The position numbers are program-made. From the NCBI RefSeq assembly GCF_011386835.1, contig NC_088800.1, positions 38,750,001 to 38,814,000 of the forward strand: a stretch of DNA of 64,000 bases, given 5' to 3'. Numbering within the stretch: position 1 is the stretch's first letter; the number at the start of each line of letters is the position of its first letter. This document shows positions 1 through 55,000 of the stretch, in pieces. This DNA comes from Chrysemys picta bellii (Eukaryota).

Positions 1-3000
1 GATGCTAGGGATCAGTAGGGGCTCCTGGCTTGCCTGAATCCTTACCTGCAAGGTGCTGCCACATTCATGGAGCCCAGCTAAAAAGATCACCGTGTTCTCC
101 ACAGCATTAAGGGACGTGTACTGGCAGGCAGCTGGGCCAAGGCTCAGGTCAGCAGCTTTGATCAGTCGCCCCGTCCCAAACAGATCCCTGTGCACAGTGA
201 TCACCAGCTGAGCCGCCTCACACTGCAGCATGACAGGCTGCAGTGGGGACACAGCCCTGGACTGGGAAGCATCAGCCCGAGCCCAGGGGTAGGGCTGGGC
301 AAGAGAAGGCACATGGGCATTTCTGTGAGGGGGCTCAGCCCTGGGGGTGGGTCTCCAGATGGCAGAGTCTCTCCTAGAGAAATCCCAGGGATTGTAACCA
401 GTCACCCCACTGACCACCCAGCACAGGAGAGCAAAGCCCAGGCTGCTTCTATATCCCATCCTGCCTGCCTGCAGCAAACCCAGCATGGAGAGAAACTCCT
501 GCTCTGGGCCCTTTATACCCTGCAGCTAAAGGCAGCCCACAGCTGCCCCAGGTAATTAACATGCTCCTCTAATCTCCAGACAGCTGGGGCCCAATCACAC
601 ATGCTGCTCACACCCTGGAGCAAGGAAACAGGAGGACCAATGGGAATCTGCCCCACCTGTTGGTCAGTTCATCAGCTGCAGTTTGGGAAATTCCTGCTCT
701 GTTTCATTCAATGGAAGGCTAAGGGTGGGCTCCACCACAAAGGGACCCAGGCCCCTCAATCCCAGATTTAGGCCTGTAAATCCTGGGTTTGACTCCACTG
801 TGATCCACAAACTACACAGTGAACTTCGTAGGTGCCTAAATTCACTCAGCAGCACCTAAGTTTTTACAGTATAAAGTTCCTTAGGTGCCTGTGTTTCAGC
901 CTCTGGGCACGTGCACAGCTGCCTCCCTCTAGGAGTCCAGACACCTATCTCCCACCTAAGCCCAGAGTGATCCATGAGCCAGGGGAAGTTAGTCGTTTGG
1001 CTGCCTAAGTTGCATGTTGGCCCCAATCCACTGGGTGTGCTGCCTGCTGGCTTCGGCCCCACTCACAATTCCACTAGAGCAGAACATGGTGTCCACCTCA
1101 GAGCTTTTAGCCCAGTGGTTAGAGCATTTACCTGGAATGTGGGAGACCCAGGTTTGATTCCCCCTCTCTTCTGTGGGGGAGAGAAAGGATATGAACAGGG
1201 GTATCCCATCTCTCAGAAGAATGCTTGAACCACTGAGCTAGGGGGCATTCTGATGCTGGGCTTCCTCCTGCTCTCCCATTCAAGCTGTACTGTTGTGGAT
1301 AAATAATGAAAGAGGGACCAGACACCAGGGCTGGCTCTAACTTTTTTGCTGCCCCAAGCAGCAAAAAAAAGCGCCCCCACGCCAAGCGCTGCGCCGCTGG
1401 AGCCCGTCCCCCCTCGCCGAGCGCCGTGCCGCTGGAGCCCTGCCCTGAGCGCCCCGCGCCGCGCCACCGGAGCGCCCGCCCCACGGAATGCCGCGCCGCG
1501 CTGCCCCCCGCCACCCCAAGATTGGCCGCCCCTTACCAGGTGCCGCCCCAAGTATGTGCTTGGTTGCCTGGTGCCTGGAGCCAGCCCTGGCTCCCACCTC
1601 CCACTGGACTACAGCAGCATTCCCAGTCACTTGCTCTCTCAGTCTGGCCCAACGACTGTTCCACTGTGGATAAGTGGAAATTTGTGTCCTCTCTAATATC
1701 CACATAACTAGCCAGATGAGTTCCAAAACTGTAGTTCTTATTCCAGGGTTGGGGTGGAGTTTGCGGGGTTGAGTTGTTTTCCCCAATGTGTTCCCCACAT
1801 CAGCCCCCATTTCTCCCCTCCCCCAGAATGGTTTGTTTTTCAAAGCCAAGAGAAGGCCTGGGTGACCTGTGCTCGCCTTGTTTCCCAAGAAGGGGGATCC
1901 CCGCAACCTTAGGAATTGGCATCCCATCTCGCTCCTCAGCACAGACTAGAAAGTCGTAGCGAAGGCCATCTCACTGTGGCTGGGGTTCCATGCTGGTGGA
2001 TCTGGTCCATCCTGACCAGACATACACCGTCCTGAGCTGGACCATCCTCGATAACCTGTACTTGGTCCAGGACCTCTTGGAGCTGGAGCGTAGGGATGGT
2101 CTGTCATTCGACCTCCTGTTTCTAGACCAGGAGAAGGTGTTCGACCGGATGGACCACAGGTATCTCCTGGGCACTCTGCGAGCCTTCGGTTTCGGGCCCC
2201 AGTTTGTGGGGTTTCTTCAGGTGCTGTACGCTTCCTCGGAGTGTCTGGTCAAGCTCAACTGGACCCTGACTGAGCCGGTCAGCTTCAGGCGAGGGGTGCG
2301 CCAGGGGTGTCCACTGTCGGGTCAGCTGTATGCCCTGGTGATCGAGCTCTTCCTTTGTCTGCTCCACCGGAAGTTGAAGGGGTTGGTGCAGCGAGAGCCA
2401 GAGTTGCGGCTGATCCTATTGGCATACGCCGACAACGTGCTCCTCGCAGTCCAGGACCCGGGCAACCTGGTGCAGGTGGAGGTTTGCCAGGCCATCTACT
2501 TGGCAGCCTCCTCTGCCCGGGTCAACTGAGTCAAGAGCTCTGGTCTAGTGGTTGGGGACAGGTGGCAGGCAAGCTCCGCCCCACCTGCGCTTCAGGCCAT
2601 CCGGTAGGGCACGGATTCGCTGCTCTATCTCAGCGTTTACCTTTCTGCCACGCATCCGTCTCCGCTGGAGAACTGGCAAGGTTTAGAGGGCAGAGTATTG
2701 GAGCGGCTGCAGAGGTGGATGGAACTACTCCAAGGGAAGGCACTGGTATTGAACCAACTAGTACTGTCCATGCTCTGGCACTGGCTCAACACCCTGGTCC
2801 CGGCCCTGAGTTTCCTGGCCAACCTCCGGAAGCTGGTTCTGGAGTTCTTTTGGCCAGGACTGCACTGGGTCTTTGCATAGGTTCTCCACCTTCCCCTGAA
2901 GGAGGGAGGACAGGGCCTAAAGTCCTCAGGTCCACATCTTCCGCCTCTAGGCCCTGCAGAGGCTCCTTTATGGTGCAGGTAGTCTGGGGTGGAGCATACT

Positions 3001-52000: not shown

Positions 52001-55000
52001 TGGATAGCCATCCACAGGTGCCAACTCTGGGGGTGCTCCAGGGCTGGATCACCCATAAAAAAAGTGGGTGCTCAGCACCCACTAGCAGCCCCTCCCCCTG
52101 ATCAACTCCTGCCTGTCCCTCCAGCACCTTCTGTCCACCAGTGGGCCCCAGCAATCAGCTCCTCCCCTCCCAGCACCTCCCACAAGCAGGTGCCTCTTGC
52201 ATGCTGCTGAACACTGGGGTACAGTGAGGGTGGGGCATGCTCAGGGACAGGGGAAGGGGTAGAGGCCAAGGTAGAGCAGGAGGTCAAGCACCTGCCAGCA
52301 AATCAAAGACAGCACCTTTGTAGCTATCTGTCTTGGATGGTTTAGACCAGTGATTTTCAGCCTTCTCATTTGTAGGCCCTTAAATTTTTAGTGGAGGTGT
52401 GGATCCCTTTCAGCATCATCTGCAGACCCCCAGGGGTCCATGGATCATGTGTCTAAACCAATTTTCAACCTAACTCCTGCACCTTGGTAGGAGTTTAGAC
52501 TAGATGACCCTTGCAGTCCCTTCTAACCCCATGGCTCTATGCACTGGCTATCTCAGCTTGTCTCCTTCCGCACTTGCCCATAGAACAGAAGACCCCTCCC
52601 TCACCCACTAGGAAATCACCACTGACCAGATGAGACATTGTGTAGTTTTATTTTGTGTTAGACAAAAGGTGCCAGTCACACAACAGTTCCAGCAATGGCA
52701 CAGCTGTGGTTTTTGTATATGAAGCAGATGGCCAGAATCATGGAGGCCAAAGCTATGGCAGCTGCCACCAAGGTCAGTCCCAGCTCCAGCCCAGGATTCT
52801 CCTCTGCACCTACAGGAGAAGGTCAGTAGTTAGAACCAGAATTGGTGCTTAGTGGTGGGGGTGCACCACAGATAAGGGAATGCTGTGGTAGATGAAGTGG
52901 GAAGTTTTGTTTGTGCTGTTCAGCTATTGCTCAGCTTTGTGGACTTGATCCTCCATATTGATTCTGTTGACTAGTGTTTTAGTCAAGACCAACTGGAGTA
53001 AACAGGAATCTGGATTCCAGAGTTGTGGGTTTTAGGCCACCCTTTGGTGCAACCAATCATCTGAGCTGGGGGGGGGCGGGGGCGCACGGGGAAGATGGGC
53101 TGCATTGCTGATAGTCTAGATCAGGGGTCAGCAACCTTTCAGAAGTGATGTGCCGAGTCTTCATTTATTCACCCGAATTTAAGATTTCATGTGCCAGTAA
53201 TACATTAACATTTTTAGAAGCTCTTTCTTTAAGTCTAATAAATAAATTAATGGAGATATCCCATCTCCTAGAACTGGAAGGGACCTTGAAAGGTCATAGA
53301 GTCCAGCCCCCTGCCTTCACTAGCAGGACCAAGTACTGATTTTGCCCCAGATCCCTAAGTGGCCCCCTCAAGGATTGAACTCACAACCCTGGGTTTAGCA
53401 GGCCAATGCTCAAACCACTGAGCTATCCCTCCCCCCCTAATATATAAACTAAACTATTGTTGTATGTTTAAGAAGCTTCATTTAAAATTACATTAAAATG
53501 CAGAGACCCCTAGACTGGTGGCCAGGACCTGGGCAGTGTGAGTGCCACTGAAAAAAAAAAAAAAAAAAAAAAAGACCACCACAGCTTGCGTGCCGCCTTT
53601 GGCACACGTGCCATAGGTTGCCTACCCCGGTCTAGAAATTTCCCTCAGACACTGCAGAGAACTCCCCTGGATTTAGTTTGCTCTTTTGCTTGCCAGCTGC
53701 TGCCCACAGGCTGGATAGCACTAAGACTCGTCTTTGAAAGGGACATTATTCAGGGTTCCCTTGAGGTGGAAGGCATCCCCTCTCCCCTGAAAGGGGGGTA
53801 ACATATGCTCCCAGGGTGCATGCCTGGTTCTTATAACCTAGACAATACCTGGTGCGGCTGCCTTCCCTGCTTCCATTCGATCTTCTACAACACCCCTGGA
53901 TTCTTGATAGGCATCAAGGATGATTAGGGGTCCTACCACAACATCAGCCTCTTCTACCCTCACTGAGAAGTCACCTGTATTGAAGAGAGGAGTTACCAGA
54001 GAACCCATCAACATTACTGCTCTTCTCATTTTAGAAGGAAGACAACCAAAGAACAGTGGGTTTTACTAAGAGAACCATTTCTTTGGGTTCAACCTCCTAT
54101 TAGCTACAAACGATGTACAGCCTACCATGTCTGGAGGCCACATCTCTCTGGAAGTGCCTGCCTGGCCGTCTGTCCAGAGGGCTGCCTCTCCCAGAATGTC
54201 CTCCAAGTAATGCACAATTTCCAGTCTCACAGCACCTGCAGATGTCTCTGGTGCCTTCCACTGGAGACCAGCTGGAACAGAAGAAGGGGCAGGGTCGCTC
54301 ACAGTAAGTCTTGTCCTCTCCATGCTGCTGATCCCACCAGCCCTCAAACCACCACCTCCATGGGGTTCTACTCCAGCTACTCACATGTTGCCTGCTTTGT
54401 TGAAGGAACAAGCCTTGTTCAAGGGATCTGGGGCTTGCTCAGCTGCAGTGACTTTCAGATGGCAGGTGATGTAGACCTGGAGGGGAAGTGGGAAGAGGGG
54501 TTAGGACTATCCCAGGGGACACTAACACCTGCTTAGCTTGGGGGGGGGGGGGAACCCAACTTCAAGCAGAAGTCTGGGAGCTCACCAAGTTCCTGGCATC
54601 TCCTGCAAACCTGAACACATCCACCATGAACTGCAGCGTGTCCTGCCTGGGCCTGGGGAATATGAAGGCTGAGGTGCTGTCATCTGATCTCCCATCCACC
54701 AGGCATCTACACACAAGAACTCTGGTTAGTAAGATCCCCACAGACTCAAGGTAGATTCTAGACTAGAAAGGGCTGCCACCTCTTACCCATTGAAGTCAAT
54801 GACAGCATAGTGGGGAGAGGAGTCCTTGTCTGGGGTCAGGGTGGCCACACAGCTGTCCACAAAGAGCCTCAAAGCCACATGGTTGCCAGTATGGACATCA
54901 GCTTGGATATGCATGACCTCCCCCAGCTGGAATCCATTGGAGGGTCTCTCAGCACTCCAGTCATCTGCAAGACAAGCTCACAGTAAGCAGGACAAACAGG

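What the first reader, a model, noticed from the sequence alone, without database searches (positions are those of the whole stretch)
556..52675. Duplication units are spacer-centred, so paralogs combine different promoter-flank and TM-exon classes
Seen: spacer A-B (556-8400) aligns with spacer B-C (11700-15950), and spacer C-D aligns with D-E (e.g. 19350-19560 vs 33040-33250, 20250-20480 vs 35070-35330, 20770-21290 vs 36720-36800 plus 38105-38410). The last exon of B matches C, and that of D matches E. So B = 5' class 1 / 3' class 1, C = 5' class 2 / 3' class 1, D = 5' class 2 / 3' class 2, E = 5' class 3 / 3' class 2. Inference: unequal crossovers occurred inside the genes, creating chimeras that reshuffle upstream regulation against the C-terminal propeptide and anchor.
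Basis: partly seen in the sequence, partly recalled or inferred. Interest (0 to 1): 0.65.

Follow-up and report, generated by a model that had tools for sequence, protein, structure and literature searches.

The report
Tandem ZP3 egg-coat gene array
This is a head-to-tail row of at least five egg-coat (ZP3) genes in a reptile- or bird-like genome that grew by misaligned recombination between neighbouring copies and was then partly homogenised by gene conversion, a well-known way for gene families to evolve.

Summary
The window holds five minus-strand ZP3 genes. A has only exon 1 in the window. B to E each have nine open GT-AG exons. The closest solved structure is 3nk3 ZP3, and I do not take the window for human.

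Spacer A-B is collinear with B-C, and C-D with D-E; shuffles give 0 hits. On shared columns A-B/B-C are 89.8% identical, C-D/D-E 69.1% and cross pairs about 59%, so the classes are depths of one unit's duplication tree. The TM exon pairs as B=C and D=E.

B is chimeric: its 5' part is sister to A (993-995 of 1000 bootstraps), and exon 2 onward is 97% like C across an intron 1 only 61-72% alike. This fits unequal crossing-over within genes.

Three corrections:
- D carries a B/C-like tract bounded on both sides, ending 11 nt after the exon 7 donor. That is gene conversion.
- All five genes share the proximal promoter to -235, so regulatory reshuffling has no support.
- The D-E 3' class is old and weak, and E's 5' flank starts like C and D.

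This is a textbook mechanism in a new locus.

The parts
1..486 (-). Gene A (partial): exon 1 (486-46) and the first 45 nt of intron 1. The rest lies outside the window.
   Evidence: 441-nt open exon 1 with a conserved GTAAG donor.
8446..11651 (-). Gene B, ZP3 paralog, ATG to stop, 9 exons: 11651-11211, 10462-10344, 10253-10150, 10069-9892, 9814-9694, 9574-9483, 9397-9255, 9111-8986, 8552-8446.
   Evidence: all exons open, with AG/GT at the exon 2-8 boundaries. ZP-N in exons 1-2, ZP-C in exons 4-6; best solved match is 3nk3 'Zona pellucida 3'.
15987..19171 (-). Gene C, ZP3 paralog, 9 exons: 19171-18731, 18089-17971, 17880-17777, 17696-17519, 17441-17321, 17203-17112, 17026-16884, 16740-16621, 16093-15987.
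   Evidence: Exon 8 has an in-frame 6-nt deletion. Intron 1 matches nothing else in the window at E below 1e-4.
26259..32857 (-). Gene D, ZP3 paralog, 9 exons: 32857-32417, 30281-30163, 30073-29970, 29893-29716, 29638-29518, 29387-29296, 29207-29065, 28899-28774, 26392-26259. Intron 1 is 2135 nt and intron 8 is 2381 nt.
52676..56534 (-). Gene E, ZP3 paralog, 9 exons: 56534-56094, 55354-55236, 55145-55042, 54964-54787, 54706-54586, 54476-54385, 54271-54126, 53974-53849, 52809-52676.
   Evidence: The exon 3 donor was re-placed by eye from the alignment.
487..8445 (.). Spacer A-B (S1): 5' flank of A plus 3' flank of B. It has insertions relative to B-C at about 979-4637 (holds a reverse-transcriptase ORF) and about 5409-6396.
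11652..15986 (.). Spacer B-C (S1'): the young sister of S1. It has a 177-bp repeat insertion (11984-12160), a 326-bp inverted segment (12904-13230), and extra sequence at about 13231-13593 and 14850-15614.
19172..26258 (.). Spacer C-D (S2).
32858..52675 (.). Spacer D-E (S2'): the old sister of S2, enlarged by a tandem-repeat block (35517-36386) and an LTR retroelement (43932-50587).
29065..30019 (-). Gene-conversion tract in D, from mid exon 3 to the exon 7 donor. It is nearly identical to B 9255-10199 and C 16884-17826, and ends within about 11 nt after the exon 7 donor.
   Evidence: site patterns. (max chi-square 72.9, 0/5000 permutations). (B-D 96.7%, C-D 96.8%, then 45% in intron 7).
11652..11886 (-). 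Proximal promoter shared by all five genes, shown here for B. The equivalents are A 487-721, C 19172-19406, D 32858-33092, and E 56535 to about 56734 with a deletion. It holds TATAAA at -31/-32 and CAGGTG at about -172.
10463..11210 (-). Intron 1 of B: A-like at its 5' end and only 61-72% like C. It holds the junction of the younger duplication, close to the exon 2 acceptor.

Best explanation
The window holds a head-to-tail array of ZP3 (egg-coat glycoprotein) genes, all derived from one ancestral gene-plus-spacer unit.

The array grew by successive out-of-register homologous exchanges between neighbouring paralogs. Each exchange duplicates one full period. It leaves two sister spacers flanking a new gene, whose 5' part comes from one parent and whose 3' part comes from the other.

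The order of events, inferred from divergence:
- An oldest split separated the S1 lineage from the S2 lineage (about 59% identity now).
- An older event produced D with the spacers C-D and D-E (about 69%).
- A younger event produced B with the spacers A-B and B-C (about 90%).

Gene conversion without crossover has since homogenised the region from about -235 to the exon 7 donor in patches. It left intron 1 and everything 3' of exon 7 to record the older history. The part 3' of exon 7 is intron 7, exon 8 (external hydrophobic patch), intron 8, exon 9 (TM anchor) and the 3' flank.

What is shown and what is inferred:
- Shown: spacer homology and its hierarchy, the chimeric signal in B, the bounded tract in D, the shared promoter, and intact exons.
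- Inferred: that the exchanges were homologous crossovers, their order, and that all copies are expressed.
For: Gene identity:
- ZP-N and ZP-C Pfam hits, exon by exon.
- 3nk3 'Zona pellucida 3' is the best solved match, with E-values of 1.3e-27 (exon 1) and 3e-27 (exon 4).
- Nine open exons in B-E, with AG/GT confirmed at the exon 2-8 boundaries.

Spacer hierarchy:
- Collinear hits, with 0 hits in shuffles.
- Deeper collinear matches between the two spacer classes.
- On common ungapped columns, in every one of 5 segments, AB-BC is above CD-DE, which is above the cross-class pairs. Pooled values are 89.8% (485/540), 69.1% (557/806) and 58.6-59.7%.

B is chimeric:
- AB|CD 995/1000 and AB|CE 993/1000 in the 5' partition; BC|DE 1000/1000 for exon 8 and for exon 9.
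- Intron 1 of B and C is 61-72% alike over 80 and 158 nt, against 97.4% from exon 2 to exon 7.

Conversion:
- Sawyer-type runs tests gave 0/5000 for BC, BD and CD, 5/5000 for BE and 4/5000 for CE.
- D's tract is bounded on both sides.
- dS in exons 4-7 is 0.008-0.025 among B, C and D. dS in exons 8-9 is 0.116 for B-C, 0.29 for D-E and 0.43-0.65 across classes.
Against: - Gene A is cut by the window edge, so I could not test whether B's 3' part is closer to C than to A.
- The identity of A-B to B-C is uneven: 92-95% in most segments but about 80% over 6883-8039. One event with one clock does not explain this.
- A and B are only 86.2% alike in -200 to -1, no more than A-C or B-C.
- Parsimony-informative sites in exon 1 conflict: AB 3, AD 3, CE 3, DE 6, BE 2-3.
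- For D, no part inside the gene is specifically C-like, so the older exchange point is not seen.
- The middle partitions give no resolved quartet.
- No expression data exist, and no relatives could be fetched.
Confidence: 0.75

Rival explanations
1. Whole-unit duplication plus later conversion. Each event copied an entire gene with its spacer, with the junction just upstream of the promoter near -235. The apparent chimeras were made afterwards by gene conversion of the 5' part. For example, A would have converted B across exon 1 and intron 1.
For: - Gene conversion is clearly active here.
- The boundary of homology at -235 is the same in all five genes.
- D shows no C-like part inside the gene.
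- Exon 1 is a mosaic.
Against: - It needs two events where one suffices.
- It needs a conversion tract in B that covers about 1.4 kb, from -235 through the whole of a poorly conserved intron 1, and stops at the exon 2 acceptor.
- Intron 1 otherwise escapes homogenisation in every pair, at 61-74%.
- Repeated non-homologous breakage at the same -235 point is unlikely.
Confidence: 0.17
2. The spacer matches are only shared transposable elements that landed independently in each spacer. They do not reflect duplication of the spacers.
For: - The spacers do hold dispersed repeats. A module of about 120 bp occurs at seven or more places, and 17 of 29 C-D/D-E hits are of that kind or are not collinear.
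- Retroelement ORFs are present.
Against: - 9 of 10 (A-B/B-C) and 12 of 29 (C-D/D-E) hits form one collinear same-strand chain that runs from promoter flank to 3' UTR.
- Most chain segments occur nowhere else in the window.
- The region upstream of E gives 0 hits to three of the four spacers.
- The identity hierarchy is the same in all 5 segments tested.
Confidence: 0.03
3. Assembly artefact: haplotypes or collapsed reads were wrongly laid out as tandem copies.
For: False tandem duplicates from assembly errors are on record for the chicken genome. I saw this only as a title in the reference list of PMC6262864.
Against: - The closest copies (B and C) differ by 3-8% in genes and flanks.
- They also differ by kilobase insertions, an inversion and a different intron 1.
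- D and E differ far more.
- There is no N in the window.
Confidence: 0.03

Closest known systems
ZP3 (ZPC) egg-coat glycoprotein genes; the closest solved structure is 3nk3/3nk4 'Zona pellucida 3' (chicken, by recall)
   Same: - ZP-N plus ZP-C module.
- From the residue alignments, which I counted by eye, about 80% identity to 3nk3 over the 66 and 62 residues aligned.
- A basic R-x-x-R site in exon 7 (RRFQR in B-D), followed by a hydrophobic patch in exon 8 (VVVGPL...) and a hydrophobic anchor in exon 9.
- A short promoter with a TATA box and an E-box within 200 bp. Mouse Zp promoters carry such an E-box, bound by FIGLA (PMC1906760, passage read).
   Different: - At least five tandem copies instead of one.
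- Two diverged forms of the TM exon.
- E reads RHFQR, which lacks R at P4.
- I ran no signal-peptide or TM predictor and made no full-length comparison, because exons were not joined.
Tandemly amplified ZP gene arrays in other vertebrates (ZP3- and ZP4-like arrays in catfish; ZP1/4 in zebrafish and alligators)
   Same: Lineage-specific tandem duplication of ZP genes. I read passages of PMC13704971 and PMC6262864.
   Different: - In the passages I read, those papers report copy numbers and positions. They do not report spacer-level history, crossover junctions or conversion tracts.
- PMC13704971 states that turtles, chicken and frogs have far fewer ZP genes than teleosts.
- Supplementary tables that may list reptile ZP3 copy numbers were closed.
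Classical concerted evolution of tandem gene families by unequal crossing-over and gene conversion (for example globin and opsin arrays, by recall)
   Same: - Same-orientation repeats, with sister spacers next to each other.
- A hybrid gene at the junction.
- Conversion tracts with sharp ends.
- Flanks and some introns that keep the older history.
   Different: Nothing in kind. Particular to this locus, one tract ends at the exon 7 donor. The homogenised part therefore covers the mature ZP-C coding exons and the cleavage site, and the part that escapes is the C-terminal propeptide and anchor.

Membership tests
ZP3/ZPC egg-coat gene | ZP module (ZP-N followed by ZP-C) | tested here: met
   searched exon by exon. 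PF23344 ZP-N hits exon 1 (1.2e-08, profile positions 1-60) and exon 2 (1.1e-05, positions 61-101). PF00100 ZP-C hits exon 4 (4.2e-12), and weakly exon 5 (0.021) and exon 6 (0.1).
ZP3/ZPC egg-coat gene | Closest named relatives are ZP3 rather than ZP1, ZP2, ZP4 or other ZP-module proteins | tested here: met
   every PDB hit is a ZP3 (3 hits for exon 1: 3nk3, 3d4c, 8bqu; 2 hits for exon 4: 3nk3, 8bqu). Only 2 of the 9 exons were searched against the PDB.
ZP3/ZPC egg-coat gene | Consensus furin-type cleavage site before a C-terminal propeptide that holds a hydrophobic patch and a TM anchor | tested here: inconclusive
   Read from the exon translations. RRFQR is in exon 7 of B, C and D, and RHFQR in E. 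VVVGPL(F/V/I)I is in exon 8, and a hydrophobic stretch of about 20 residues in exon 9. I ran no cleavage or TM predictor. The motif names are recalled.
Tandem array grown by unequal crossing-over | Same-orientation copies, with adjacent spacers that are each other's closest relatives along their whole length | tested here: met
Tandem array grown by unequal crossing-over | The gene between two sister spacers is a hybrid: its 5' part is sister to one neighbour and its 3' part to the other | tested here: inconclusive
   For B the 5' side is met (AB|CD 995/1000, AB|CE 993/1000). The 3' side is 92-97% like C, but A's 3' part lies outside the window. For D the feature is not met inside the gene.
Concerted evolution by gene conversion | Tracts of near-identity between paralogs, bounded on both sides by diverged sequence and clustered more than chance allows | tested here: met
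   The runs tests gave 0/5000 for BC, BD and CD. The max chi-square test gave 0/5000. dS is 0.008-0.025 inside the tract, against 0.12-0.65 outside it.
Assembly or haplotype artefact | Copies nearly identical, flanks included | tested here: not met

The most novel reading that the evidence does not exclude
The sharp end of homogenisation at the exon 7 donor may not be an accident of tract ends. Selection may keep two distinct C-terminal propeptide/anchor forms (B/C type and D/E type), while the mature ZP3 module is kept uniform. The array would then deliver nearly the same egg-coat subunit through two differently processed or trafficked precursors, or from different cell types. The fast-evolving exon 1 N-terminus (dN/dS 0.77-0.95 among A, B and C) would supply the only mature-protein variation.
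Probability: 0.12. Interest if true: 0.5.

Novelty: new member of a known kind. Interest (0 to 1): 0.3.

Why it matters
The locus is a clean, datable example of how a fertilisation-protein family expands. Three layers of duplication are still legible in the spacers. One hybrid gene has a junction that can be placed to within an intron. Conversion tracts separate the mature egg-coat module from its propeptide and anchor.

An array of five or more ZP3 genes is more than a paper on ZP copy numbers says is usual for turtles, chicken and frogs (PMC13704971, passage). The mechanism itself is textbook. Nothing here bears on an open question unless the two anchor types prove to differ in function.

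Tried and rejected
- Relic or alternative TM exons. I searched the exon 8 and exon 9 peptides of both classes against the whole window at E below 1. Only the known exons came back, plus chance-level hits.
- More ZP3 exons beyond E or inside the spacers: none. The 7.3 kb upstream of E holds only short ORFs, which I did not search against Pfam.
- Structured RNAs: 0 Rfam matches at gathering scores.
- C's odd intron 1 as a repeat element: it has no other copy in the window. 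It does keep weak collinear homology to B's intron, so it is an old paralogous intron and not a replacement.
- Placing the older (D) crossover: the partitions inside the gene are unresolved or group D with E.
- A single-clock dating of the young event: dropped because identity between the sister spacers is uneven.
- Literature. Three searches and passages of four papers turned up no description of a reptile or bird ZP3 tandem array, or of conversion among ZP3 paralogs. This is not proof of absence, because subscription journals and supplements were out of reach.
- Not done:
  - No full-length protein search, fold or structure comparison, because the spliced model was searched exon by exon and never joined.
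  - No search for relatives.

Full report
WHAT THE WINDOW IS

The 64-kb window has no N. It is about 50% G+C with strong CpG depletion (observed/expected 0.07-0.39), which is typical of a vertebrate.

A self-comparison shows repeated gene-sized blocks. The coding strand is the minus strand. Exon-by-exon Pfam searches give ZP-N in exons 1 and 2 and ZP-C in exons 4-6. Exon-by-exon searches of solved structures return only ZP3 chains. The best is 3nk3/3nk4 'Zona pellucida 3', with E-values of 1.3e-27 for exon 1 and 3e-27 for exon 4. The ZP3 fusion 3d4c (mouse, by recall) is far weaker at 1.1e-11. By recall 3nk3 is chicken ZP3.

I do not take the window for human, for three reasons:
- Its closest solved relative is 3nk3, chicken by recall.
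- It holds five tandem ZP3 copies.
- It holds a young LTR retroelement of a kind that, by recall, is not active in mammals.

There is therefore no full-length protein search, fold or structure comparison in this report.

GENE MODELS

There are five genes. A has only exon 1 and 45 nt of intron 1 in the window. B, C, D and E each have nine exons. All exon frames are open, and the exon 2-8 boundaries are AG/GT. The phases were checked by arithmetic.

Exon 7 carries a basic site: RRFQR in B-D and RHFQR in E. Exon 8 carries a hydrophobic VVVGPL patch. Exon 9 carries a hydrophobic anchor and a short tail. The names for these parts (furin-type site, external hydrophobic patch, TM) are recalled, and no predictor was run.

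Spacer A-B against B-C gives 10 blastn hits. Nine form a collinear same-strand chain from the promoter flank to the 3' UTR, and one is a 326-bp inverted segment.

Spacer C-D against D-E gives 29 hits. The other 17 are dispersed repeats or are not collinear.

Twenty dinucleotide shuffles of the partner spacer gave no hit in either case. The 7.3 kb upstream of E gave none to three of the four spacers.

B-C are 94.4% identical in nucleotides and 88% in amino acids. D-E are 83.7% and 74%. Across classes the figure is about 50% of amino acids, and the coding lengths differ (107 against 134 nt).

THE CLASSES ARE DEPTHS IN ONE TREE

The two spacer classes also match each other weakly and collinearly. 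On columns present in all the spacers compared, the order was the same in each of five segments: A-B/B-C is highest, then C-D/D-E, then the cross-class pairs. The pooled values are 89.8% (485/540), 69.1% (557/806) and 58.6-59.7%.

All spacers therefore descend from one ancestral spacer, with the tree ((A-B, B-C), (C-D, D-E)).

Synonymous divergence in exons 8-9 gives the same layers: B-C 0.116, D-E 0.29 and cross-class 0.43-0.65.

WHERE THE CLASS BOUNDARIES LIE

- 5' side. All five genes align from about -235 to the ATG. They share TATAAA at -31/-32 and CAGGTG near -172 (-140 in E, because of a deletion).
- Upstream of -235. A and B share one sequence. C, D and E share another for about 95 nt. 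Beyond about -330 only C and D continue together.
- 3' side. B, C and D are nearly identical up to the exon 7 donor. There D switches abruptly: identity falls from 96.7-96.8% to 45% in intron 7. The best single breakpoint lies 11 nt after the donor, with chi-square 72.9 and 0 of 5000 permutations as high.

THE HYBRID GENE B

In the partition from -235 to intron 1 +45, A and B are sisters against C. AB|CD has 995/1000 and AB|CE 993/1000 bootstraps. A and B also share a 3-nt deletion just after the exon 1 donor.

Intron 1 of B and C keeps only weak collinear homology: 72.5% over 80 nt and 61% over 158 nt. From the exon 2 acceptor onward B and C are 97.4% alike through exon 7, and 92-95% alike through intron 7, exon 8, intron 8, exon 9 and the 3' flank.

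B is therefore A-like on its 5' side and C-like on its 3' side, and the change lies at the 3' end of intron 1. A single unequal crossover between an A-like and a C-like gene predicts exactly this, and it duplicates the spacer whole.

The limit of this test is that A's 3' part is outside the window.

Site patterns along B, C, D and E fall into blocks:
- In exon 2 to exon 3, D is the odd one out.
- From intron 3 to exon 7, E is the odd one out and B = C = D.
- After the exon 7 donor, B = C, and D and E each stand apart.

Within introns 3-6, B-D and C-D are 92-93% identical while E is 78%. In exons 4-7, dS among B, C and D is 0.008-0.025. That is below the B-C value of 0.116 in exons 8-9, so homogenisation continued after the young duplication.

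D's B/C-like tract is bounded on both sides, which a crossover cannot produce. Runs tests on 346 polymorphic sites gave 0/5000 for BC, BD and CD, 5/5000 for BE, 4/5000 for CE and 304/5000 for DE. Exon 1 is a mosaic with conflicting informative sites.

RESULTS AGAINST A SIMPLE READING

- The sister spacers A-B and B-C are 92-95% alike in most segments but about 80% alike over 6883-8039.
- A-B identity in -200 to -1 is only 86.2%, no higher than A-C or B-C.
- Inside the gene, D is never specifically C-like. In exon 1 it groups with E or stands alone. The older exchange point cannot be placed.
- In exon 8, D-E (82.5% nucleotide, 63% amino acid) is hardly closer, or no closer, than D-B (77-80%, 67.5%).
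- Intron 7 of D and E gave no blastn hit, while C-E did: 75% of 96 ungapped positions, covering 106 nt of C's intron.
- The middle partitions give unresolved quartets.

WHAT IT MEANS

Here it is the best explanation.

The further claim that this reshuffles regulation against the propeptide and anchor is not supported. The proximal promoter is common to all copies, including the E-box position that FIGLA uses within 200 bp of mouse Zp promoters (PMC1906760, passage). The class-specific sequence lies further upstream and has no known function. The class combinations follow from geometry, because one spacer is both the 5' flank of one gene and the 3' flank of the next.

COMPARISON WITH PRINT

Tandem and lineage-specific duplications of ZP genes are well described: zebrafish and alligator ZP1/4 (PMC6262864, passages) and catfish ZP3 and ZP4 arrays (PMC13704971, passages). 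The catfish paper says turtles, chicken and frogs carry far fewer ZP genes than teleosts.

Three searches found no account of a sauropsid ZP3 array or of conversion among ZP3 paralogs. Supplements, which may list reptile copy numbers, and subscription journals were out of reach.

The open genome collection holds only bacteria and archaea. No relatives were examined.

VERDICT

This is a textbook mechanism in a new locus, and interest is modest.

Noticed in passing
window 43932-50587 (+), in spacer D-E: An LTR retroelement with two 346-bp LTRs that are 94.6% alike. Pfam on its ORFs as they stand finds a SCAN-like gag part, a zinc knuckle, a weak aspartyl protease, and then integrase before reverse transcriptase and RNase H. 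By recall, integrase-before-RT order with gypsy-type domains marks Gmr1-like elements, and the SCAN domain is thought to derive from their gag. The gag-pol region is read in several separate ORFs rather than one or two. I did not characterise the interruptions.
   Followed up: partly
window 44216-44890 (+) and 22995-23735 (-): An ORF with a GIY-YIG nuclease domain (E = 1.4e-06 and 4.2e-06, both above Pfam's cut-off). It sits just inside the 5' LTR of that retroelement. It occurs again in a 970-bp inverted copy that is 96.6% identical, in spacer C-D (22670-23639 against 45210-44246). The Atlas places it among small eukaryotic GIY-YIG 'hypothetical proteins' (score 0.97). A GIY-YIG gene inside an LTR element is unusual, and it may be a nested or captured piece.
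   Followed up: partly
window 21091-21211, 22669-22791, 39531-39713, 40786-40982, 42537-42865, 42867-43150, 44898-45210: A module of about 120-310 bp, repeated at least seven times in both orientations within spacers C-D and D-E. One occurrence is a back-to-back inverted pair at 42544-43150. It overlaps the region next to the GIY-YIG ORF.
   Followed up: no
window 5011-5336 against 12904-13230: A 326-bp segment that is inverted between the otherwise collinear sister spacers A-B and B-C, at 94.8% identity.
   Followed up: no
window 979-4637, in spacer A-B: A G+C-rich insertion of about 3.7 kb that is absent from spacer B-C. It has several plus-strand ORFs, and one has a reverse-transcriptase domain (RVT_1, 2.8e-13). 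It is probably a decayed non-LTR retroelement.
   Followed up: partly
window 6883-8039 against 13792-15337: This stretch of the young sister spacers is only about 80% identical, while its neighbours on both sides are 92-95% identical. The unevenness is unexplained.
   Followed up: partly
window 35517-36386 and 60869-61084: Tandem repeats: a G+C-rich array with periods of about 34-177 bp in spacer D-E, and 2.7 copies of a 79-bp unit upstream of E.
   Followed up: no
window 11984-12160 against 53254-53436: A 177-bp insertion in the 5' flank of B, 89.7% identical to an inverted copy inside intron 8 of E. It is a short dispersed repeat.
   Followed up: no
exon 1 of A, B and C (486-46, 11651-11211, 19171-18731): dN/dS in exon 1 is 0.77-0.95 among A, B and C, against 0.06-0.6 in exons 2-7. 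The N-terminal part of the protein evolves fast. Counts are small (7-8.5 synonymous differences).
   Followed up: partly
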